Positions 1-51,361 of a DNA stretch of 54,847 nucleotides are shown piece by piece. This DNA comes from Escherichia coli. GTDB lineage: Bacteria; Pseudomonadota; Gammaproteobacteria; Enterobacterales; Enterobacteriaceae. The translations under genes were made by a program, and so were the position numbers. Under the pieces are notes generated by a model, which saw nothing but the letters and a program-made list of their open reading frames with translations, searched no databases and was not told the DNA's origin. Location of the stretch: the NCBI RefSeq assembly GCF_003334385.1, contig NZ_QOWN01000031.1. One strand, written 5' to 3'. Numbering within the stretch: position 1 is the first letter of the stretch; every line of letters begins with the position of its first letter.

Positions 1-1
1 G

Positions 2-739
2 TGGCTTGCGCAGTGCGGGCTGACGGTGGAGCAACTGGCCAGACAGGTGGAGCCGGAATACACACCGGCGCGAAAAGCTCATCTTTATCACTGCGACCAC
101 CGGGGACTGCCGCTGGCGCTTATCAGCGAAGACGGCAATACGGCGTGGAGCGCGGAATATGATGAATGGGGCAACCAGCTTAATGAGGAGAACCCGCATC
201 ATGTGTATCAGCCGTACCGTCTGCCAGGGCAGCAGCATGATGAGGAATCAGGGCTGTACTATAACCGTCACCGGTACTACGATCCGTTGCAGGGGCGGTA
301 TATTACTCAGGACCCGATGGGGTTGAAAGGGGGATGGAATTTATATCAGTATCCTTTAAATCCACTACAACAAATTGACCCTATGGGATTATTGCAGACT
401 TGGGATGATGCCAGATCTGGAGCATGTACGGGGGGAGTTTGTGGTGTTCTTTCACGTATAATAGGACCAAGTAAATTTGATAGTACTGCAGATGCTGCGT
501 TAGATGCTTTGAAAGAAACGCAGAATAGATCTCTATGTAATGATATGGAATACTCTGGTATTGTCTGTAAAGATACTAATGGAAAATATTTTGCATCTAA
601 GGCAGAAACTGATAATTTAAGAAAGGAGTCATATCCTCTGAAAAGAAAATGTCCCACAGGTACAGATAGAGTTGCTGCTTATCATACTCACGGTGCAGAT
701 AGTCATGGCGATTATGTTGATGAATTTTTTTTCAAGTAG
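2..739 (+). CDS. rhsD: Rhs protein C-terminal end (5' partial): conserved core end with DPxGL motifs followed by a variable C-terminal toxin domain
   Basis: Open frame from the window start; translation contains the typical Rhs core end ([25 protein letters not shown]), then a divergent tail; the following gene is ybbC as in K-12. Confidence 0.75.
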
Positions 740-938
740 CGATAAAAATCTTGTAAGAAGTAAAGATAATAATCTTGAAGCATTTTATCTCGCAACACCT
801 GATGGACGATTTGAGGCGCTTAATAATAAAGGAGAATATATTTTTATCAGAAATAGTGTCCCGGGATTGAGTTCAGTATGCATACCGTATCATGATTAAT
901 TTTAGTGCTTTTATTAGTGGGGCCTATAAGGAGATTCA

Positions 939-1307
939 ATGAAATATAGTTCAATATTTTCGATGCTTTCATTTTTTATACTATTTGTCTGTAATGAGAC
1001 AGCTGTTTACGGTTCTGATGAAAACATTATTTTTATGAGGTATGTGGAAAAATTACATTTAGATAAATACTCTGTTAAAAATACGGTAAAAACTGAAACA
1101 ATGGCGATACAATTAGCTGAAATATATGTTAGGTATCGCTATGGCGAACGGATTGCAGAAGAAGAAAAACCATATTTAATTACGGAACTACCAGATAGTT
1201 GGGTTGTTGAGGGAGCAAAGTTACCTTATGAAGTTGCGGGTGGTGTATTTATTATAGAAATTAATAAGAAAAATGGATGTGTTTTGAATTTCCTACATAG
1301 TAAATAA
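939..1307 (+). CDS. ybbC: Small protein following the Rhs C-terminal toxin, putative cognate immunity protein
   Basis: 122-aa ORF with AAGGAG ribosome-binding site upstream, AT-rich, position immediately after the Rhs C-terminus; length matches K-12 YbbC. Confidence 0.7.
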
Positions 1308-2017
1308 TGCTGGCGCTGATGGATGCGGATGGAAACATTGCGTGGAGCGGGGAGTATGATGAGTGGGGCAACCAGCTGAATGAAGAGAACCCGCATCACC
1401 TGCACCAGCCGTACCGGCTGCCGGGGCAGCAGTATGATAAGGAGTCGGGGCTGTACTACAACCGGAACCGGTACTACGATCCGTTGCAGGGGCGGTATAT
1501 CACTCAGGACCCGATAGGGCTGGAGGGGGGATGGAGTCTGTATGCGTATCCGCTGAATCCGGTGAATGGTATTGATCCATTAGGGTTAAGTCCCGCAGAT
1601 GTAGCGCTAATAAGAAGAAAAGATCAACTAAACCATCAAAGAGCATGGGATATATTATCTGATACTTATGAAGATATGAAGAGATTAAATTTAGGTGGGA
1701 CTGATCAATTTTTCCATTGTATGGCATTTTGTCGAGTGTCTAAATTAAATGACGCTGGTGTTAGCCGATCGGCGAAAGGGCTGGGTTATGAAAAAGAGAT
1801 TAGAGATTACGGGTTAAATCTGTTCGGTATGTACGGCAGAAAAGTAAAGCTATCCCATTCTGAAATGATTGAAGATAATAAAAAAGACTTGGCTGTAAAT
1901 GACCATGGGTTGACATGTCCATCAACAACAGATTGCTCAGATAGATGTAGTGATTATATTAATCCAGAGCATAAAAAAACGATAAAGGCTTTACAAGATG
2001 CTGGCTATCTCAAGTAA
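1307..2017 (+). pseudogene. ylbH: Orphan Rhs C-terminal module (displaced core fragment plus alternative toxin domain)
   Basis: Translation repeats the Rhs core end ([33 protein letters not shown]) and then diverges; start overlaps the ybbC stop; no full Rhs core upstream. Confidence 0.65.
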
Positions 2018-2234
2018 TCTATCAAAGATGATAATATTTATTTTTGCTATTATAATCATTGTTGTTTTATGCGTAATTACTTATCTTTATTTATACAAAG
2101 ATGAATCTCTTGTAAGTAAACATTACATAAACTATATGGCAATACCAGAAAATGATGGAGTTTTTACATGGCTCCCAGATTTTTTTTCCGCACGTAGCGG
2201 TGGATATATCAATATACACAAATGTAGAAGATGA
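1998..2234 (+). CDS. Small hydrophobic protein, possible immunity partner of the orphan Rhs module
   Basis: 78-aa ORF overlapping the end of the orphan module; strongly hydrophobic N-terminus ([22 protein letters not shown]); AT-rich. Confidence 0.35.
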
Positions 2235-16404: not shown

Positions 16405-16560
16405 AAGCGGATGCGATTTATATCGCATAAGAGTGCAGTACTCATGCCGGATGCGGCATGAGTACCATATCCTTCCTGAAAATCGCGCAAATTCTATATA
16501 TTGCAGAGATCATGTAGGCCTGATAAGCGAAGCGCATCAGGCAATGTTACAAAAAAAGCC
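16405..16560. repeat. REP/palindromic-unit cluster between convergent glxK and allE
   Basis: Palindromes gtactcatgccggatgcggcatgagtac and gcctgataagcgaagcgcatcaggc, plus hairpin gccacggtataaaccgtggc. Confidence 0.6.
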
Positions 16561-16619
16561 ACGGTATAAACCGTGGCAAAATCCAACATAGCTAAAAATA
16601 ATCAGGCGAGTGGTATGAC

Positions 16620-38097: not shown

Positions 38098-38174
38098 GCG
38101 CCCTTAGCTCAGTTGGATAGAGCAACGACCTTCTAAGTCGTGGGCCGCAGGTTCGAATCCTGCAGGGCGCGCCA
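38098..38174 (+). tRNA. argU: tRNA-Arg (anticodon UCU)
   Basis: 77-nt cloverleaf sequence gcgcccttagctcagttggatagagcaacgaccttctaagtcgtgggccgcaggttcgaatcctgcagggcgcgcca, anticodon loop cuUCUaa, encoded CCA end. Confidence 0.95.
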
Positions 38175-38189
38175 TTACAATTCAATCAG

Positions 38190-39353
38190 TTACGCCTTCT
38201 TTATATCCTCCATAATTCCAGAGTGGGACATATTTGGGACATTATCACCAAAAATGTCGTCTATTTTCCTCGCATGCTCTGTCAAATGATTAGGCGCAAG
38301 GTGAGCATACCTACGAACCATTTCTATGGACTCCCATCCGCCCATTTCCTGAAGCACTGATAATGGGACGCCTGACTGAATCAGCCAGCTTGCCCAGGTG
38401 TGTCTGAGGTCATGGAAACGGAAATCTTCAATTCCTGCACGACGACAAGCTGATAGCCATGATGTCTTGCTGTCGATGCGCATCTTCCTGACCGCAGGCG
38501 TTGATGTTCCATCTGCTCGCTTAGCCGCCTTGGTATGTACAAACACCCATTTGTGATGCTTGCCTATTTGATCACGCAACACTTTACAGGCGGTATCGTT
38601 CAGCGCCACACCAATGGCGCGGTTTGATTTGCTCTCTTCTGGATTCACCCAGGCAACTCGTCGCTGCATGTCGATTTGTTGCCATTCCAGATTTATGATG
38701 TTCGACTTTCTCAGACCAGTTGCCAGCGCAAACTTGACGACAGATTTCAGTGGTTCGGGGCACTCATCAATAAGGCGTTTTGCTTCCTCCTTTTCCAGCC
38801 ATCTGACTCGCTTGTTTCTGACCGCTGGTATCTTGATGACAGGCGCTTTTTCCAGCCACTTCCAGTCGCGTTCTGCAGCACGGAGAATGGCCTTTATCAT
38901 GGCAAGATGCTTTGCCTTTGTCTGAGTTGATACTGGCTTTGGTTCATAAACAGGCGGTTCTTTACCTTTCCTGATGGCGGCCTGAACTTTCTGTTTCCAT
39001 ATTTCTTTCGTCTTTCTGTTATGCATTCTGCTTACAGCAGAGTAAATCTTTGCCTCCGAGATATCTTTAAGCCTTATACCCTCAAAATGTTCAAGCCAGA
39101 ACTCAATCCGGCTTTTATCTGAATCGAGAGATTTTTTATCAGCTTTTTCCTCAAGCCATCTTAGGCAGGCCTCTTCAAAAGTGACATCAGGTAAATCCCC
39201 TAGCTTTTCTACTCGCCAGAGTTCTGCTTTTCGCTTGTCGTGCAACTCCTGAGCTTGCCGCTTGTCCTTTGTGCCAAGAGATTCCTTAATTCGTTTCCCG
39301 CCCGGGAGCGAATACGAGGCATACCATATTTCATTTCTGCGGAAGAGTGACAT
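38190..39353 (-). CDS. intD: Phage tyrosine integrase
   Basis: 387-aa [36 protein letters not shown] with C-terminal catalytic HxxR...Y region; adjacent to the tRNA. Confidence 0.9.
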
Positions 39354-39580
39354 TTTCTTTCCTCTGTTATGCCATCACCCGCGCTCACCTGGACAGTATG
39401 CAGCGGAGACTGAAGCGCCGCAATGCAGGCTTGCCGTGTTGTGAGGTAAGGAGATTTTGGCTTGGTTGGATCTTTACGTGTTGCCTGTAGGCGGCCTGTT
39501 CGTATCCAGTTGGTGGCGGTTGGTCTGGATATCTTAAGAAACTGACAGGCCTCATCGAGTGTGAGGCTGTATGATTCCAT
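39209..39580 (-). CDS. Excisionase-like HTH protein; ORF overlaps the integrase start, possibly decayed
   Basis: AlpA/Xis-like HTH ([26 protein letters not shown]); start taken at MESYSL; 145-nt overlap with int in another frame. Confidence 0.4.
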
Positions 39581-39830: not shown

Positions 39831-40095
39831 TTTTACACCTCAGTTGGACGATGTTGAAATTTGCTGCTTTGAGGCCATCACAGTCCCCATTGTTTGTTCT
39901 TAAGTTCGATCTCCTCCTGGCAACTTGCACAAGTCCGACAACCCTGAACAGCCAGGCGTCTTGCTCATCTATCGGATCGCCACACTCACAACAATGAGTT
40001 GCGGATACAGTCTGGTAGTTCTGACGACGCATTTTTATTGCTGTATTGCGCTGTAATTCTTCGATTTCTGATGCTGAATCAATGATGTCTGCCAT
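39808..40095 (-). CDS. Possible TraR/DksA-type C4 zinc-finger protein
   Basis: CCECGDPIDEQ motif in a 95-aa ORF; call is by eye only. Confidence 0.35.
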   Translation of the reverse strand: MADIIDSASEIEELQRNTAIKMRRQNYQTVSATHCCECGDPIDEQDAWLFRVVGLVQVARRRSNLRTNNGDCDGLKAANFNIVQLRCKNVQNHFS

Positions 40096-47299: not shown

Positions 47300-47997
47300 A
47301 AAACATCGCCGCACAGATGGTTAACTTTGACCGTGAGCAGATGCGTCGGATCGCCAACAACATGCCGGAACAGTACGACGAAAAGCCGCAGGTACAGCAG
47401 GTAGCGCAGATCATCAACGGTGTGTTCAGCCAGTTACTGGCAACTTTCCCGGCGAGCCTGGCTAACCGTGACCAGAATGAACTGAACGAAATCCGCCGCC
47501 AGTGGGTTCTGGCTTTCCGGGAAAATGGGATCACCACGATGGAACAGGTTAACGCTGGAATGCGCGTAGCCCGTCGGCAGAATCGACCATTCCTGCCATC
47601 ACCCGGGCAGTTTGTTGCCTGGTGCCGGGAAGAAGCATCCGTTACCGCCGGGCTGCCAAACGCCAGCGAGCTGGTTGATATGGTTTACGAGTATTGCCGG
47701 AAGCGTGGCCTGTATCCGGACGCAGAGTCTTATCCATGGAAATCAAACGCGCACTACTGGTTGGTTACCAACCTGTACCAGAACATGCGGGCCAATGCGC
47801 TGACTGACGCGGAATTACGGCGTAAAGCTGCCGATGAGCTGACCTGTATGACCGCGCGAATTAACCGTGGTGAGGCGATACCTGAACCAGTAAAACAACT
47901 TCCTGTCATGGGCGGTAGACCTTTAAATCGTGCACAGGCTTTGGCGAAGATCGCAGAAATCAAAGCTAAGTTCGGACTGAAAGGAGCAAGTGTATGA
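47296..47997 (+). CDS. Replication protein P (DnaB helicase loader)
   Basis: 233-aa translation matches lambda P as I recall it (MKNIAAQMVNFDREQMRRIANNMPEQYDEKPQVQQVAQIINGVFSQLLATFPASLANRD). Confidence 0.85.
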   Translation: MKNIAAQMVNFDREQMRRIANNMPEQYDEKPQVQQVAQIINGVFSQLLATFPASLANRDQNELNEIRRQWVLAFRENGITTMEQVNAGMRVARRQNRPFLPSPGQFVAWCREEASVTAGLPNASELVDMVYEYCRKRGLYPDAESYPWKSNAHYWLVTNLYQNMRANALTDAELRRKAADELTCMTARINRGEAIPEPVKQLPVMGGRPLNRAQALAKIAEIKAKFGLKGASV

Positions 47998-48287
47998 CGG
48001 GCAAAGAGGCAATTATTTATTACCTGGGGACGCATAAGAGCTTCTGTGCGCAGGACGTTGCCGCGGTAACAGGCGCAACAGTAACCAGCATAAATCAGGC
48101 TGCGGCTAAAATGGCGCGGGCAGGAATCTTGGTCATTGATGGTAAGGTCTGGCGAACGGTGTATTACAGATTCGCTACCAGGGAAGAACGGGAAGGAAAG
48201 GTGAGCACTAACCTGATTTTTAAGGAGTGTCGCCAGAGTGCCGCGATGAAGCGGGTGTTGATGGTTTGGGGGAGGGTAGGGGTATGA
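47994..48287 (+). CDS. ren: Ren protein
   Basis: 97-aa translation MTGKEAIIYYLGTHKSFCAQDVAAVTGATVTSINQAAAKMARAGILVIDGKVWRTVYYRFATREEREGK matches lambda Ren as I recall it. Confidence 0.8.
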   Translation: MTGKEAIIYYLGTHKSFCAQDVAAVTGATVTSINQAAAKMARAGILVIDGKVWRTVYYRFATREEREGKVSTNLIFKECRQSAAMKRVLMVWGRVGV

Positions 48288-48484
48288 GCATGATGGATTT
48301 CGCAGAAACTAAAAAGGCTATCGACGCCATCACAACCGACTGGTCTATCCGAGGACCGTATCACGAAGACGACGGGAAATATTACGCCTTGCTTCGTGGA
48401 GAGTGGGTTGGTGGCGGGTATATCGGAAAACGGAAAGCCCTTGATGCCATTCTCGAAAAGTTAATCCAGGAGGCCGCCCAATGA
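48284..48484 (+). CDS. Hypothetical nin-region protein
   Basis: Start taken at MSMMDFAETKKAIDAITTDW within ORF 48227-48484. Confidence 0.4.
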   Translation: MSMMDFAETKKAIDAITTDWSIRGPYHEDDGKYYALLRGEWVGGGYIGKRKALDAILEKLIQEAAQ

Positions 48485-48696
48485 GCAACATCGACAAACC
48501 GTGAACTGGTGGATGCCGCCATTGAATTGGCCGGAGAGTTTTATGCGATGCAGGGCTATTCGCATCGTCCTGGCTTCAAGTATTGGCAATCTCCGCACCC
48601 GCATGAGCGCCTGTGCTTTGAAATGGCTTGTGTGGCATTCGAAACCATTCGCGGCTCAGATGTAATGGACGCCGTATCTGAGTTGGAGGATGAAGA

Positions 48697-49110
48697 ATGA
48701 GCAACATCGACAAACGCGCATTACGTGAAATCGCTGAGGCAGCAGTTGGTGCACATGAGCGCCTTAGTGTTATGCCGCCTGATGACATTTTCGATATCTC
48801 ACTGGCAGAAGGAACTCAGCTTGATGCAGATATCACTGCCTTGAGCGCGCTGAACTCCGCAGCCAACCCAGCCACAGTGCTGGCGCTGCTGGATGAGCTG
48901 GAAGCCAAAGACCAGAGGATTGCTGTGCTGACCGAATCGCTCAAGCAGACGGTTTCAGGATACAAATCCTGCCTGCGTACCGGACATGAGCGCATTCTTG
49001 ACCTTGGCGGTGACTGTGACGCGCCAGAAGTGATGATTGCAGGCAATCCTGACATTCAGCAGGCGCAGAAGCTGATCGCCGCCGCATCCGGTAAAGGAGA
49101 GGCATCATGA
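48697..49110 (+). CDS. Hypothetical phage protein, possibly Ead/Ea22-like N-terminal module
   Basis: 137-aa ORF MSNIDKRALREIAEAAVGAHERL...ALLDELEAKDQRIAVL (coiled-coil-like); the same first 6 codons recur at 48481 in a truncated copy. Confidence 0.4.
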   Translation: MSNIDKRALREIAEAAVGAHERLSVMPPDDIFDISLAEGTQLDADITALSALNSAANPATVLALLDELEAKDQRIAVLTESLKQTVSGYKSCLRTGHERILDLGGDCDAPEVMIAGNPDIQQAQKLIAAASGKGEAS

Positions 49111-49151
49111 GCACTATTACCAAACAATGACTGCAGCAGAAAATTGCCGAC

Positions 49152-49913
49152 ATGGAAGCAGCCAGAGATGAAATCCCGTTCGGTCTGGACGAAGGCGACA
49201 GCAACACGCTGGCGGCACTGCGTATCGCGCTGGCATCGCTCGAAGCGGAGCCTGCCATTCACCGGTGGCGTCGTGTGACCTCTGAGCCATACGGCCCCTA
49301 TCCTTGGCATTATGGTGATTTTATCGGCTTCTCAAAGCCCGTTGATGGGATTGAGGATGAGTATTTTTACTCCGCCCCGCCAGAGCCAGCCAATGCCGAA
49401 ACCGTAGCCTGGCTGTGGTCACACAGGAAACACCCGAGCGAAGTCACGCTTGTTCGCCCTGAAGATGATGAGAGAGCGGAGGGTGCTCACTGGTCTGGCT
49501 GGAGTTGTCAGGCGCTTTATGCAGCACCGCCAGTTCCGGTATCTGTGCCCACATTCGAGAAATGGTGTGAGTTGACTGAGCAGAAACCTGTCGGATGGGG
49601 GCGTGATGCTATGAAAGAAGCGTATGACGGATGCCGCGACGCCATGCTTCAGGGTGCCGAAAAAGCCGAGTCGCCCACCACCATGCAGACCGCGCCAGCC
49701 CTAGATTCTTCGCCAAAAATTTCCGAGTCGCCCGTCAGCAACTCTCCGGTGATTCCGGATGGTTGGGTGCTGGTTCCTAAGGAGCCAACTCCAGAAATGC
49801 GTGAGGCGTACCATCAGGCGCAGGAAGAGTGTGAAGATGGCGGTAGATTATGGAGCCCAGACCACCAATGGAAGGCCATGATCGCAGCAGCACCGCAGCA
49901 GGAGGCGAAGTGA
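49152..49913 (+). CDS. Hypothetical phage protein, possibly Ea22-like C-terminal part
   Basis: 253-aa ORF with PTPEMREAY motif near the C-terminus; separated from the preceding ORF by stops in all frames. Confidence 0.35.
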   Translation: MEAARDEIPFGLDEGDSNTLAALRIALASLEAEPAIHRWRRVTSEPYGPYPWHYGDFIGFSKPVDGIEDEYFYSAPPEPANAETVAWLWSHRKHPSEVTLVRPEDDERAEGAHWSGWSCQALYAAPPVPVSVPTFEKWCELTEQKPVGWGRDAMKEAYDGCRDAMLQGAEKAESPTTMQTAPALDSSPKISESPVSNSPVIPDGWVLVPKEPTPEMREAYHQAQEECEDGGRLWSPDHQWKAMIAAAPQQEAK

Positions 49914-49964
49914 TTATGTCGTGACAGCATAATTGCGATGTCAACGATAAGCAGAGGTTTGAAA

Positions 49965-50159
49965 ATGAAATCACAATCACCAGTGCAGCATGAAGTTAAC
50001 ATCGACGGCAAAGAGTATGTTGTCACAGTAGTCCAAACCGGCAAGTCAACGTGGAGGGCATGGGGAGATTCCTGGGGGCGCCATATAGTCGAAACAGGTT
50101 CTAGCGAACATAGCGCGCTTTCTCATTGGAAAGCAAAAGCTTTAGTTATGAATGGGTAG
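49965..50159 (+). CDS. Hypothetical small protein
   Basis: Start taken at MKSQSPVQHEVNIDGKEYVV within ORF 49938-50159. Confidence 0.3.
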   Translation: MKSQSPVQHEVNIDGKEYVVTVVQTGKSTWRAWGDSWGRHIVETGSSEHSALSHWKAKALVMNG

Positions 50160-50182
50160 CGCGGAAACTTTGAAGGTATAAT

Positions 50183-50208
50183 CCCCTCAAATAATCGAGG
50201 GGGTTTTT
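50183..50208 (+). terminator. Intrinsic terminator hairpin directly abutting the start of the following cargo gene
   Basis: cccctcaaataatcgagggg followed by gttttt; the 3' arm overlaps the probable ribosome-binding site of the ORF starting at 50209. Confidence 0.5.
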
Positions 50209-50718
50209 ATGTCTGGTTGGGATAACGGTATAGATGCAGTTTCTGCGATTGCAGCTATCGCATCTGCGGTAGCAACTTATTTAGCATGGCGATCCTCAGA
50301 AGCTAGCAGGGCCACATCCGAAAAAGCTTTGCAGTTGCAAGGAAAGCAGTATTTGTACGAGACATTAAAAGCTTGCGCTGAGAGAGCGAATTCATACTCA
50401 AAAGGAAAGAAAGGGGCTGACTGGAGCTTTCATGACGCAGCCAATATTGTTCGATGTTTGAACATGGCAATGGGGAGCATAATAAATTACTCAGATACCA
50501 ACAATCAGGATGCAATGAAAGGTCTGAAGCAATTCTTTATTAGCCAATTAAACATGGAGCTTTTTGAAGAGCTCAACTATGAGGTTGGGCCTGATGCCTT
50601 CTTTCACGGAGAGGAGCTAACCAGCATGACGAGCGATATTTACTCGCAGTGGTTAAACATTATTTCATTCTTTAACCTCATGATTGTCACAGATGATGAC
50701 CTCGCCGATGAAACATAG
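50209..50718 (+). CDS. Unknown-function 169-aa membrane-anchored protein; moron-like cargo
   Basis: N-terminal hydrophobic helix (IDAVSAIAAIASAVATYLAW); AT-rich; insulated by an upstream hairpin and a 187-bp downstream spacer; occupies the variable locus that carries emrE/ybcKLM in K-12 DLP12. Confidence 0.5.
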   Translation: MSGWDNGIDAVSAIAAIASAVATYLAWRSSEASRATSEKALQLQGKQYLYETLKACAERANSYSKGKKGADWSFHDAANIVRCLNMAMGSIINYSDTNNQDAMKGLKQFFISQLNMELFEELNYEVGPDAFFHGEELTSMTSDIYSQWLNIISFFNLMIVTDDDLADET

Positions 50719-50905
50719 CTTGATTGATTTTCCATAATCAACCCGCCATAATCATGTCATCGGAGCCTGAACAACTCCGGTGACTTCTGCGCTAAACGGG
50801 GACGTTTATGCGCATATACAATCCAAACTCTCTTCTCCCTTCACAGATGCAGAAATGCACCTGCGTTTTTTTGCATCCAACGTTTGACCTCTGCGGAGGT
50901 GAAGC

Positions 50906-51361
50906 GTGAACCTCCCACAAGACGGTATCAAATTGCATCGCGGTAACTTCACCGCTATCGGTCAGCAGATCCAGCCTTATCTGGAGGACGGAAAATGCTT
51001 TCGCATGGTGCTTAAACCGTGGCGTGAGAAACGCAGTCTTTCCCAGAATGCACTCAGCCACATGTGGTACAGCGAAATCAGTGAATACCTCATCAGCAGG
51101 GGTAAAACGTTCGCCACTCCAGCTTGGGTAAAAGATGCTCTCAAACACACATATCTCGGTTATGAAACCAAAGACTTGGTTGATGTCGTAACCGGTGAGA
51201 TCACCACTATCCAGTCGTTACGCCATACCTCCGATCTTGATACCGGAGAGATGTATATCTTCCTGTGTAAGGTTGAAGCCTGGGCGGTGAATATTGGCTG
51301 CCACCTGACTATTCCGCAGAGCTGCGAGTTCCAGCTGCTCCGCGACAAACAGGAGGAGTAA
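50906..51361 (+). CDS. ybcN: DLP12-type NinB-position protein (DNA base-flipping protein)
   Basis: 151-aa translation [50 protein letters not shown] matches K-12 YbcN as I recall it; GTG start with GGAGG ribosome-binding site. Confidence 0.8.

What the first reader, a model, noticed from the sequence alone, without database searches (positions are those of the whole stretch)
48478..49913. Degenerate tandem paralogs in the nin-side cargo region
The 21-bp sequence aatgagcaacatcgacaaac occurs twice (about 48480 and 48696). The first copy opens a reading frame that terminates after 7 codons (MSNIDKP-stop), while a +1 frame continues as a 63-aa ORF. The second copy starts an intact 137-aa ORF (MSNIDKRALREIAEAAV...). 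This suggests a duplicated gene family with one frameshifted copy. The following 253-aa ORF begins after stops in all three frames and has a PTPEM motif reminiscent of Ead/Ea22-like proteins, so the 48697-49913 pair might be a split Ea22-like gene. The pattern suggests active recombinational shuffling in this cargo hotspot.
Basis: seen in the sequence. Interest (0 to 1): 0.4.

Follow-up and report, generated by a model that had tools for sequence, protein, structure and literature searches.

The report
Two broken prophage cargo genes
The repeated 20-base sequence is a standard gene-start cassette that lambda-like phages place in front of many unrelated small genes, and the odd reading frames around it are two ordinary strain-specific knock-outs (an 11-base deletion and a stop codon) in accessory genes of a decaying E. 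coli prophage.

Summary

**Setting.** The window is E. coli chromosome. It carries a lambda-like prophage at the tRNA-Arg/DLP12 site. Between ren and ninB lies a chain of small genes joined by ATGA stop/start overlaps.

**Gene 1 (48481-48700).** It is frameshifted. Near-identical prophages encode an intact 76-aa protein. The window lacks 11 bp (GACAAACCAAT), lost between two 8-bp direct repeats (GACAAACC).

**Not a paralog of gene 2.** Gene 1 shares only the first six codons with gene 2 (hhalign probability 0.3%; no Pfam hit).

**The 20-mer.** It is a conserved module-boundary cassette: the upstream gene ends ...AAQ-TGA and the next gene starts MSNIDK. It occurs at 120 or more viral loci, ahead of dozens of unrelated proteins.

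**Gene 2 (48697-49110).** It is a complete Ead/Ea22 protein with the family's usual ...KGE end.

**The 253-aa ORF.** It is not the second half of gene 2. It is a separate 268-codon EaA-like gene that starts at ATG 49107, with TGG changed to TGA at codon 8 (49128-49130). That base is the only difference from strain SCU-104 in 2001 bases.

**Relatives.** They carry about eight to ten other independent lesions in this block, while the flanking genes stay intact. The substitution pattern looks neutral.

**Verdict.** Ordinary prophage decay at a known kind of mosaic junction. Low interest.

The parts
48284..48484 (+). 66-aa gene upstream of the block (g66). It ends ...QEAAQ-TGA and supplies the upstream half of boundary cassette copy 1.
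   Evidence: PGAP CDS WP_000062289.1, identical in all 18 relatives examined. No nucleotide change in 201 nt. No PHROG, NCBIfam or PADLOC match.
48469..48499 (+). Boundary cassette copy 1: Shine-Dalgarno GGAGG, the ATGA stop/start overlap and the codons MSNIDK.
   Evidence: The same junction caggaggccgcccaATGAGCAACATCGACAAAC is seen in mEp390, Bas106 and an O19:H7 prophage, and in 120 or more viral loci.
48481..48700 (+). Gene 1, a pseudogene in this strain. It belongs to a 76-aa small-protein family predicted to form three helices, and is frameshifted here by an 11-bp deletion.
   Evidence: The intact allele is MSNIDKPMTNRELVDAAIELAG...EDEE in strain C8 and others. About 70 homolog clusters are mostly stand-alone proteins of 66-81 aa. 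It matches phrog_4132. The AF2 model has pLDDT 91.
48481..48504 (+). The 7-codon remnant ORF MSNIDKP-TGA created by the deletion.
48493..48500 (+). The surviving copy of the 8-bp direct repeat GACAAACC. The intact allele reads ATC-GACAAACCAAT-GACAAACC-GTG, so one repeat plus its 3-bp spacer (11 bp) is missing here.
   Evidence: Alignment with C8 and G1/2 and with 10 and then 16 genomes. The deletion is shared with SCU-104, LR-62-2, GCA_012504395.1 and ERR1948963.
48509..48700 (+). 63-aa remnant ORF (GTG start) that holds the conserved core of gene 1 from residue 14 onward.
   Evidence: PGAP calls it WP_250112340.1 in SCU-104. The invariant family columns begin at A16. There is no Shine-Dalgarno upstream, and the GTG lies 4 nt after the mini-ORF stop.
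48685..48715 (+). Boundary cassette copy 2 (GGAGG..ATGA..MSNIDK), heading gene 2.
   Evidence: Megablast matches to mEp213, mEp043, Louie and Dewey start exactly here (query 497).
48697..49110 (+). Gene 2: an intact 137-aa Ead/Ea22-family protein that ends ...GKGEAS.
   Evidence: Pfam PF13935, E = 3.4e-23, model positions 1-113 of 139. PGAP names it 'ead/Ea22-like family protein'. This exact allele is on 164 contigs.
49107..49913 (+). Gene 3, a pseudogene in this strain. It is a 268-codon EaA-like mosaic gene whose start overlaps the gene 2 stop as ATGA.
   Evidence: Translation gives MSTITKQ*LQQK.... Relatives have W at codon 8 and PGAP annotates the full 807-nt CDS there. Homologs are stand-alone proteins. 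The N- and C-terminal modules match annotated EaA proteins, and phi80 has a full-length homolog at 31% identity.
49128..49130 (+). TGA nonsense codon (TGG to TGA, a G to A change at 49130) at codon 8 of gene 3.
   Evidence: It is the only difference from SCU-104 across 48200-50200. The same allele is in GCA_012504395.1 and Logan ERR1948963. The 253-aa product is on 4 contigs, against 103 and 448 contigs for two intact alleles.
49152..49913 (+). 253-aa remnant ORF of gene 3, starting at the internal Met16.
49965..50159 (+). Unannotated 64-aa ORF (orf64), the last member of the block.
   Evidence: It is called as a gene in Logan contig L012. It carries a 1-bp deletion in 2018-06-4CC and is fused to gene 3 in S51. 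No family match.
50180..50205 (+). Terminator-like hairpin with a T run that closes the block, just before the 169-aa gene.
   Evidence: 9-pair stem, 5 G-C pairs, TTTTT tail.

Best explanation
**What it is.** The region is a string of small accessory ('ea-type') genes: g66, gene 1, gene 2, gene 3 and orf64. It sits between ren and ninB in the early-right operon of a lambda-like prophage integrated at the tRNA-Arg/DLP12 site of E. coli. From O through gene 3, each gene start overlaps the previous stop as ATGA.

**The 20-nt repeat.** It is not a trace of gene duplication. It is a short conserved module-boundary cassette: the upstream gene ends ...AAQ-TGA, and the downstream gene has a Shine-Dalgarno sequence, an ATG and the codons MSNIDK. 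Lambdoid and P22-like phages carry it in front of dozens of unrelated genes. It most likely serves as a patch of homology at which modules are exchanged (inferred). In this window two adjacent, unrelated genes each carry the cassette.

**The degenerate frames.** They are two ordinary loss-of-function mutations in this strain's lineage:
1. An 11-bp deletion in gene 1, of the kind produced by replication slippage between two 8-bp direct repeats GACAAACC. One repeat comes from the cassette codons D-K-P. The other comes from the gene's own codons M-T-N-R. The deletion is shown; the slippage mechanism is inferred.
2. A G to A transition that turns Trp8 (TGG) of gene 3 into TGA (shown).

**Genes 2 and 3.** Gene 2 is a complete Ead/Ea22 protein. 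Gene 3 is a separate EaA-like gene. They are not two halves of one gene.

**Evolution of the block.** It evolves as if unconstrained in resident prophages. Relatives carry many other independent lesions.
For: **Context**
- The window is collinear with strain SCU-104, with 21 SNPs after position ~2200.
- The prophage runs tRNA-Arg, intD ... O, P, ren, then the cargo block, then ybcN/ninB, ninE, ybcO, rusA, Q.
- All six junctions from O to gene 3 are ATGA overlaps.

**The cassette**
- After MSNIDK come 64 different 12-residue continuations, in products of about 60-300 aa. The preceding gene usually ends ..(E/G)AAQ.
- Tandem cassette-headed genes also occur in loci L128 and L098.
- Homology to other phages starts at the cassette.

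**Gene 1**
- An intact 76-aa allele is present in 15 of the 18 complete genomes examined at this site.
- The deletion maps between GACAAACC repeats.
- The intact allele is on 743 contigs, against 28 for the 63-aa remnant.

**Gene 3**
- Every relative has TGG.
- The TGA allele was recovered from independent samples.

**No paralogy:**

**No split gene:**

**Decay in 17 near-identical complete genomes plus the window**
- Gene 1: the 11-bp deletion, a +T insertion and E46*.
- Gene 2: G39* and ATG to ATA at the start.
- Gene 3: W8* and E188*.
- orf64: a 1-bp deletion.
- An 18th genome, S51, has a deletion that fuses gene 3 to orf64.
- Substitutions are 16 nonsynonymous to 7 synonymous, close to the neutral expectation.
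- g66 has no change in 201 nt. P, ren and the 169-aa gene are annotated intact everywhere.
- By the SCU-104 annotation the same prophage has other pseudogenes: TraR/DksA, a truncated HTH gene and a tail gene.

**Literature**
- Short conserved boundary sequences are a proposed route to mosaic joints (Clark et al. 2001 and Susskind & Botstein 1978, as cited in PMC3029335).
- Phage recombinases exchange DNA with the DLP12 nin region at low homology (PMC3945230).
Against: - No experiment shows that recombination happens at this cassette. Its conservation could partly reflect selection on the Shine-Dalgarno sequence, the start and an N-terminal peptide.
- 'Pseudogene' is inferred from sequence. The 63-aa ORF keeps every invariant residue of the family and starts 4 nt after the mini-ORF stop. 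UGA followed by C is a weak terminator in E. coli (my recollection of Poole et al. 1995), and read-through by tRNA-Trp would restore the original residue. Some product from either gene is therefore not excluded.
- The functions of genes 1 and 3 are unknown.
- The lesion survey covers 18 of the 25 complete genomes that hold the block. It is not mapped on a host phylogeny, so 'independent' rests on different sites and haplotypes only.
Confidence: 0.9

Rival explanations
1. Genes 1 and 2 are tandem paralogs of one duplicated family, one copy frameshifted. The 137-aa and 253-aa ORFs are two halves of a split Ea22-like gene.
For: Both genes share 20 identical nucleotides and MSNIDK at the start. 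There is a weak REL/REI..AA resemblance (E = 0.005 for the single pairwise comparison). PGAP names two gene 3 relatives 'ead/Ea22-like family protein' (P0099 and P0106).
Against: - hhalign probability is 0.33%.
- Genes 1 and 3 have no Ead_Ea22 Pfam match.
- The leaders in the gene 1 family are hypervariable, so the MSNIDKP leader is a graft.
- The same 20-mer heads dozens of unrelated proteins.
- Gene 2 has the complete domain and the canonical KGE end.
- Gene 3 homologs are stand-alone.
- mEp390 and Bas106 have the same two-gene junction.
- The break in gene 3 is an in-frame stop inside gene 3, not between the two genes.
Confidence: 0.03
2. The lesions are leaky rather than null. Ribosomes ending the 7-codon mini-ORF reinitiate at GTG 48509, giving a nearly complete gene 1 protein. 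UGA at 49128 is read through as Trp, or ribosomes reinitiate at ATG 49152. Both genes would then still work at reduced level.
For: - GTG 48509 lies 4 nt after the TGA of the mini-ORF.
- The 63-aa ORF keeps all invariant columns (A16 onward) and most of helix 1, which spans residues 10-27.
- PGAP annotates it as a CDS.
- The stop context is UGA-C, which from my memory of the E. coli termination-context literature is the weakest.
Against: - Neither GTG 48509 nor ATG 49152 has a Shine-Dalgarno sequence upstream.
- Other lineages carry plainly destructive lesions in the same genes: a +T frameshift at codon 53, E46*, E188* and a large deletion. Loss is therefore tolerated.
- The substitution pattern is near neutral.
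- Nearly invariant residues M8, N10, E12 and L13 are lost from the gene 1 remnant.
Confidence: 0.15
3. Adaptive loss. The block is costly to the lysogen or to the prophage, and its inactivation is positively selected. That would explain why most copies carry a lesion.
For: - 14 of the 18 complete genomes examined carry at least one lesion in genes 1-3.
- There are roughly eight to ten independent disruptive events in about 1.65 kb.
- P, ren, g66 and the 169-aa gene show none.
- Secondary lesions pile up in lineages that already have a first hit.
Against: - The 16:7 nonsynonymous-to-synonymous ratio and the share of disruptive changes are about what neutral decay gives.
- The lesions define a few clades, so many carriers descend from few events.
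- Intact alleles are far more common in public data: 743 contigs for gene 1, and 448 plus 103 for gene 3.
- The prophage has pseudogenes elsewhere too.
Confidence: 0.12
4. A sequencing or assembly artefact produced the frameshift and the stop codon.
For: Single-base and short-indel errors do occur in assemblies.
Against: - The 11-bp deletion is present in independent assemblies from the USA and Ecuador (SCU-104, LR-62-2) and in two draft or read-derived assemblies.
- The TGA allele, with all 2001 nt identical, is in GCA_012504395.1 and in Logan ERR1948963. That contig was seen in 7 samples.
- The deletion is not in a homopolymer.
Confidence: 0.02

Closest known systems
Lambda Ea22 / P22 EaD proteins (Pfam Ead_Ea22, PF13935)
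   Same: Gene 2 matches the family HMM (E = 3.4e-23). It begins with the usual M-S-x-I-x-K-x-A-L-R-E type N-terminus and ends with the K-G-E motif noted for Ea22 proteins (PMC7093339). Like them it is a small early-operon accessory gene with a variable C-terminal part (PMC10834534).
   Different: It lies between ren and ninB in the rightward operon, not between exo and xis. At 137 aa it is shorter than lambda Ea22 (182 aa). Its pro-lysogenic role is untested. Genes 1 and 3 are not members.
EaA-type mosaic proteins of P22-like and lambdoid phages (for example mEp390 gp31 'EaA protein'; a phi80 hypothetical protein)
   Same: Residues 1-70 of gene 3 resemble the N-termini of annotated EaA proteins. 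Residues 200-268 resemble the mEp390 EaA C-terminus (...NSPVIPDGWVLVP...AMIAAAPQQE). phi80 has a full-length homolog at 31% identity. The preceding gene ends ...GKGEAS* and is joined by ATGA to MSTIT..., exactly as in mEp390.
   Different: Gene 3 itself has no DUF550 or DUF551 Pfam domain. The middle part differs. In this strain the gene carries a stop at codon 8.
Short conserved boundary sequences at module joints of lambdoid phages (Clark et al. 2001 on HK620; Susskind & Botstein 1978; as cited in PMC3029335)
   Same: A 20-33 nt sequence spanning a stop/start overlap is conserved across many phages while the genes on either side vary. Similarity blocks break at it.
   Different: I did not check whether this particular cassette (..AAQ-TGA / MSNIDK) is among those described in that paper, which is not in the searchable library. 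Here two copies lie 216 nt apart in tandem. That arrangement was seen in only 2 of the 120 viral loci returned (L128, L098).
DLP12 cryptic prophage of E. coli K-12 (intD ... ybcN-ninE-ybcO-rusA-ylcG-quuD)
   Same: Same integration site next to tRNA-Arg. Same nin genes ybcN, ninE, ybcO, rusA, ylcG and quuD. Both show pseudogenisation.
   Different: In SCU-104 this prophage is nearly full length (exo-bet-gam, cI-like repressor, O, P, ren, head and tail genes), and it carries the extra ren-ninB cargo block. The comparison with K-12 DLP12 rests on gene names and my own knowledge, not on an alignment.

Membership tests
Ead/Ea22-like (PF13935): gene 2 | Significant match to the family HMM | tested here: met
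   E = 3.4e-23, residues 2-100, model positions 1-113 of 139.
Ead/Ea22-like (PF13935): gene 2 | C-terminal K/R-G-E motif (PMC7093339) | tested here: met
   Ends ...GKGEAS*. 60 of 108 distinct cassette-headed ORFs end the same way.
Ead/Ea22-like (PF13935): gene 2 | Central coiled coil and tetramer formation (PMC10834534) | not tested
   No coiled-coil or structure prediction was run for gene 2.
Ead/Ea22-like (PF13935): gene 2 | Location in the exo-xis region of the leftward early operon | tested here: not met
   It lies between ren (47994-48287) and ninB/ybcN (50906-51361).
Ead/Ea22-like (PF13935): gene 2 | Pro-lysogenic effect on phage development | not testable with these tools
   Needs deletion and infection assays like those in PMC7093339.
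Ead/Ea22-like (PF13935): gene 1 | Homology to the family beyond the shared start | tested here: not met
   No Pfam match even at E <= 10. hhalign of the gene 1 family against gene 2 gives probability 0.33%, with 8 aligned columns. BLASTP aligns only residues 1-18.
Ead/Ea22-like (PF13935): gene 3 | Significant match to the family HMM | tested here: not met
   No Pfam family at E <= 10. None of the 120 listed homologs carries PF13935.
Split gene (gene 2 + gene 3 as one ancestral ORF) | Relatives in which the two parts are one continuous ORF | tested here: not met
   Gene 3 homologs are stand-alone, mostly about 230-320 aa, and many cover the whole query. All 17 complete relatives that retain a full-length gene 3, plus mEp390 and Bas106, show two genes joined by an ATGA or short overlap.
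Pseudogene by slipped-strand deletion: gene 1 | An intact allele in near-identical relatives, a deletion flanked by direct repeats, and a disrupted frame | tested here: met
   The intact 76-aa ORF is in C8 and 14 other genomes. The intact allele reads ATC[GACAAACCAAT]GACAAACCGTG. 11 is not a multiple of 3.
Nonsense pseudogene: gene 3 | A sense codon at the same position in all relatives, in the same frame as an upstream start | tested here: met
   The other genomes have TGG, the window has TGA. ATG 49107, TGA 49128 and ATG 49152 are in one frame.
Programmed frameshift or stop-codon read-through | The shift or stop site is conserved among homologs, and a slippery or stimulatory sequence is present | tested here: not met
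   Homologs have uninterrupted ORFs. The sequence AAA-CCG-TGA has no slippery run. Stimulatory RNA structures were not examined.
Conserved module-boundary sequence of lambdoid phages | The same short sequence at gene borders in many phages, with unrelated genes on either side | tested here: met
   120 or more viral loci with 64 different continuations after MSNIDK. The upstream genes end ..AAQ. There are three annotated examples.
Conserved module-boundary sequence of lambdoid phages | Recombination actually takes place at the sequence | not testable with these tools
   Only indirect evidence: similarity blocks to mEp213, mEp043, Louie and Dewey begin at 48696. No gene 1-less g66-gene 2 joint exists among complete E. 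coli genomes.
EaA-like proteins: gene 3 | Similarity to annotated EaA proteins, and the DUF550 domain of P22 EaA | tested here: inconclusive
   The N- and C-terminal modules match EaA proteins at 46-72% identity over 47-70 residues. There is no DUF550 or DUF551 Pfam match in gene 3 itself.

The most novel reading that the evidence does not exclude
The ren-ninB block (gene 1, the Ead/Ea22 gene, the EaA-like gene and orf64) acts as one functional unit. It would be needed only during lytic growth, or be costly in the lysogen. It would then be knocked out repeatedly and independently once the prophage is resident, so the lesions mark ongoing domestication rather than random decay. The 7-codon mini-ORFs might also leave residual, down-tuned expression.
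Probability: 0.12. Interest if true: 0.35.

Novelty: already known. Interest (0 to 1): 0.1.

Why it matters
It matters little beyond annotation.

- **Annotation fix.** 48481-48700 and 49107-49913 should be annotated as pseudogenes of a 76-aa gene and a 268-aa gene. The 63-aa and 253-aa ORFs should not be treated as independent genes.
- **Repeat interpretation.** The 20-mer should not be read as evidence of paralogy.
- **Illustration of a boundary cassette.** The region is a clean example of a short boundary cassette shared by many unrelated phage accessory genes.
- **Ea22 K/R-G-E ending.** The comparison suggests a simple reason for this conserved ending: it encodes the ribosome-binding site of the next gene.

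Tried and rejected
- **Family searches.** NCBIfam and PADLOC gave no hit for any of the six proteins of the block. PHROGs gave only families of unknown function. Pfam found nothing for gene 1 or gene 3.
- **Solved structures by sequence.** Nothing for the gene 1 family. For gene 2 only a chance-level hit, E = 0.7.
- **Structure of gene 1.** The AlphaFold model is confident (pLDDT 91, three helices). Foldseek against the PDB gave no match with E <= 0.001; the best was E = 0.35, TM 0.36. No function could be read from the fold.
- **RNA families.** Rfam found none in 47900-51000.
- **Gene 1-less joint.** I looked for g66 joined directly to gene 2, which would show cassette-mediated excision. All 25 full-coverage hits in complete E. 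coli genomes are two-piece matches that still include gene 1.
- **Programmed +1 frameshift or read-through.** Considered and rejected, because intact alleles are the majority and there is no slippery site.
- **Sequencing error.** Rejected, because the alleles recur in independent assemblies.
- **Promoter scan.** No more sites than in the shuffles.
Full report
**Observation**

The 20-nt string AATGAGCAACATCGACAAAC occurs at 48480-48499 and 48696-48715 and nowhere else in the window. No match arose in 100 shuffles. With the upstream GGAGG the repeat extends to 31 nt at 84% identity.

- ATG 48481 gives MSNIDKP and then TGA.
- A 63-aa ORF from GTG 48509 runs in the +1 frame to 48700.
- ATG 48697 opens a 137-aa ORF ending at 49110.
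- A 253-aa ORF runs 49152-49913, and stops lie upstream of it in all three frames.

One point was missed. ATG 49107 overlaps the stop of the 137-aa ORF as ATGA. It is in the same frame as TGA 49128 and ATG 49152.

**Context**

- The window is E. coli chromosome. After position ~2200 it is collinear with strain SCU-104, with 21 SNPs.
- A lambda-like prophage sits next to tRNA-Arg (38098-38174), with intD at 38190-39353. This is the DLP12 site.
- The region of the finding lies downstream of O, P and ren, and upstream of ybcN/ninB, ninE, ybcO, rusA and Q. 'Nin-side cargo' is therefore correct.
- From O through gene 3, all six junctions are ATGA stop/start overlaps.
- A terminator-like hairpin at 50180-50205 closes the block.

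**Gene 1 (48481-48700)**

- Twenty-four complete E. coli genomes hold the whole 2-kb region at 98.7% identity or more. A 25th, S51, holds it with part of gene 3 and orf64 deleted.
- In strain C8 and others the first cassette opens an intact 76-aa ORF, MSNIDKPMTNRELVDAAIELAG...EDEE.
- Alignment shows that the window lacks 11 bp. The intact allele reads ATC-GACAAACCAAT-GACAAACC-GTG. One copy of the 8-bp direct repeat GACAAACC plus its 3-bp spacer is gone. This is the signature of replication slippage.
- The deletion is shared with SCU-104, LR-62-2 and two draft assemblies. It is real and inherited.
- The intact allele is much commoner in public data: 743 contigs against 28.

**Are genes 1 and 2 paralogs? 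No.**

- BLASTP aligns only residues 1-18.
- hhalign of the gene 1 family against gene 2 gives probability 0.33%.
- Gene 1 has no Pfam match.
- Its roughly 70 homolog clusters are mostly stand-alone proteins of 66-81 aa. Their conserved core starts at M8 (MTNRELVDAAIELAG), and the few residues before it differ from one homolog to the next. The MSNIDKP leader is therefore a graft.

**What the 20-mer is**

- In mEp390, Bas106 and an O19:H7 prophage, the same sequence caggaggccgcccaATGAGCAACATCGACAAAC joins an upstream gene ending ...EAAQ* to a downstream gene starting MSNIDK.
- After MSNIDK there are 64 different continuations, in products of about 60-300 aa. The upstream gene nearly always ends ..AAQ.
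- Megablast matches to mEp213, mEp043, Louie and Dewey begin exactly at 48696.
- This is a short conserved module-boundary sequence. The idea goes back to Susskind & Botstein and to Clark et al. 2001, as cited in PMC3029335. Phage recombinases are known to exchange DNA with the DLP12 nin region at low homology (PMC3945230).
- Tandem cassette-headed genes also occur in viral loci L128 and L098.
- No g66-gene 2 joint lacking gene 1 was found among complete E. coli genomes.

**Genes 2 and 3**

Gene 2 (137 aa):
- It is an Ead_Ea22 protein: E = 3.4e-23, model positions 1-113 of 139.
- It ends ...GKGEAS, the K/R-G-E ending noted for Ea22 proteins (PMC7093339).
- Of 108 distinct cassette-headed ORFs, 60 end this way. 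All 60 have the next start codon within a few bases of their stop. This is a normal gene end.

Gene 3:
- It starts at ATG 49107. Relatives have an uninterrupted 268-codon CDS.
- The window has TGG changed to TGA at codon 8. This is the only difference from SCU-104 in 2001 nt.
- The same allele occurs in GCA_012504395.1 and ERR1948963. It is rare: 4 contigs, against 103 and 448 for two intact alleles.
- It has no Pfam domain.
- Its homologs are stand-alone proteins, and none of the 120 listed carries PF13935.
- Its terminal modules match annotated EaA proteins.
- mEp390 has the same EaD-like/EaA junction between two separate genes.

**Decay of the block**

I examined 17 near-identical complete genomes plus the window. 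An 18th genome, S51, was read separately.

| Gene | Disruptive lesions seen |
|---|---|
| Gene 1 | 11-bp deletion; +T insertion; E46* |
| Gene 2 | G39*; start codon ATG to ATA |
| Gene 3 | W8*; E188*; in S51 a deletion that fuses it to orf64 |
| orf64 | 1-bp deletion; lost as a separate gene in S51 by the fusion to gene 3 |

- Only C8, QDFD216, MIN9 and 50EVAW have all of genes 1-3 intact.
- Point substitutions are 16 nonsynonymous to 7 synonymous, about the neutral ratio.
- g66 has no change in 201 nt. P, ren and the 169-aa gene are annotated intact in all genomes examined.
- By the SCU-104 annotation the prophage also has a frameshifted TraR/DksA gene, a truncated HTH gene and a tail gene with an internal stop.
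- The simplest reading is relaxed selection on dispensable cargo in an ageing prophage. Adaptive loss is possible but not required.

**Residual function**

- GTG 48509 lies 4 nt after the mini-ORF stop. The 63-aa ORF keeps all invariant residues and most of the first helix of a confident three-helix model.
- UGA followed by C is a weak terminator, from my own knowledge of E. coli termination contexts.
- Some leaky expression cannot be excluded. Neither remnant start has a Shine-Dalgarno sequence, and other lineages tolerate clearly destructive lesions.

**Function**

Only gene 2 has a characterised family. Ea22 proteins are early proteins with a central coiled coil, and lambda Ea22 is a tetramer. 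They favour lysogeny (PMC7093339, PMC10834534). Nothing informative was found for genes 1 and 3 or orf64.

**Verdict**

The frameshift and the recombinational mosaic are right. 'Tandem paralogs' and 'split Ea22 gene' are wrong. What is there is an ordinary pair of strain-lineage pseudogenes at a known kind of mosaic junction. The intact genes are already annotated in RefSeq, and PGAP already flags several of the lesions in relatives as pseudogenes. Interest is low.

Noticed in passing
window 49090-49110; viral loci L026-L145: The K/R-G-E ending of Ea22 proteins, described as of unknown significance in PMC7093339, coincides with the Shine-Dalgarno sequence of the next gene (AAA GGA GAG ... ATG). 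Of 108 distinct cassette-headed ORFs, 60 end with [KR]GE. All 60 have a start codon within -4 to +12 nt of their stop.
   Followed up: partly
window 50209-50718: A 169-aa ORF (phrog_1779, unknown function) with a hydrophobic N-terminal segment. Its protein accession is the same in every relative examined. It lies directly after a terminator-like hairpin (50180-50205), which looks like a moron. No PADLOC, NCBIfam or other functional match.
   Followed up: partly
window 39515-39580 and 39878-40095: Other pseudogenes in the same prophage, from the SCU-104 annotation at identical coordinates: a truncated helix-turn-helix gene next to int, and a frameshifted TraR/DksA-family gene. Beyond the window, SCU-104 has a tail gene with an internal stop.
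   Followed up: no
window 47296, 47994, 48284, 48481, 48697, 49107: Six consecutive ATGA stop/start overlaps link O, P, ren, g66, gene 1, gene 2 and gene 3. This suggests tight translational coupling along the operon.
   Followed up: yes
L010 (E. coli S51), corresponding to window ~49453-50020: In strain S51 a deletion fuses gene 3 in frame, at about residue 115, to the middle of orf64 (...SEVTLV|TVVQTGKSTW...). The result is a 160-aa chimera that PGAP annotates as a normal CDS.
   Followed up: partly
L007 (E. coli QEC11-421), corresponding to window 48699: The gene 2 start codon is ATA instead of ATG, yet PGAP assigns the same protein accession as in strains with ATG.
   Followed up: no
window 16479-16613: Rfam hits to the sRNAs ES036 (16479-16521) and STnc480 (16547-16613) lie in the intergenic gap between glxK and allE, in the host chromosome part of the window.
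   Followed up: no
window 1-2200: The first ~2.2 kb (rhsD/ybbC region) does not match SCU-104 position for position, while the rest of the window differs by only 21 SNPs. This is probably an Rhs-tip variant or an indel.
   Followed up: no
window 49965-50159: A 64-aa ORF with a plausible ribosome-binding site. PGAP does not annotate it in the RefSeq relatives, but another gene caller does. It has no family match.
   Followed up: partly
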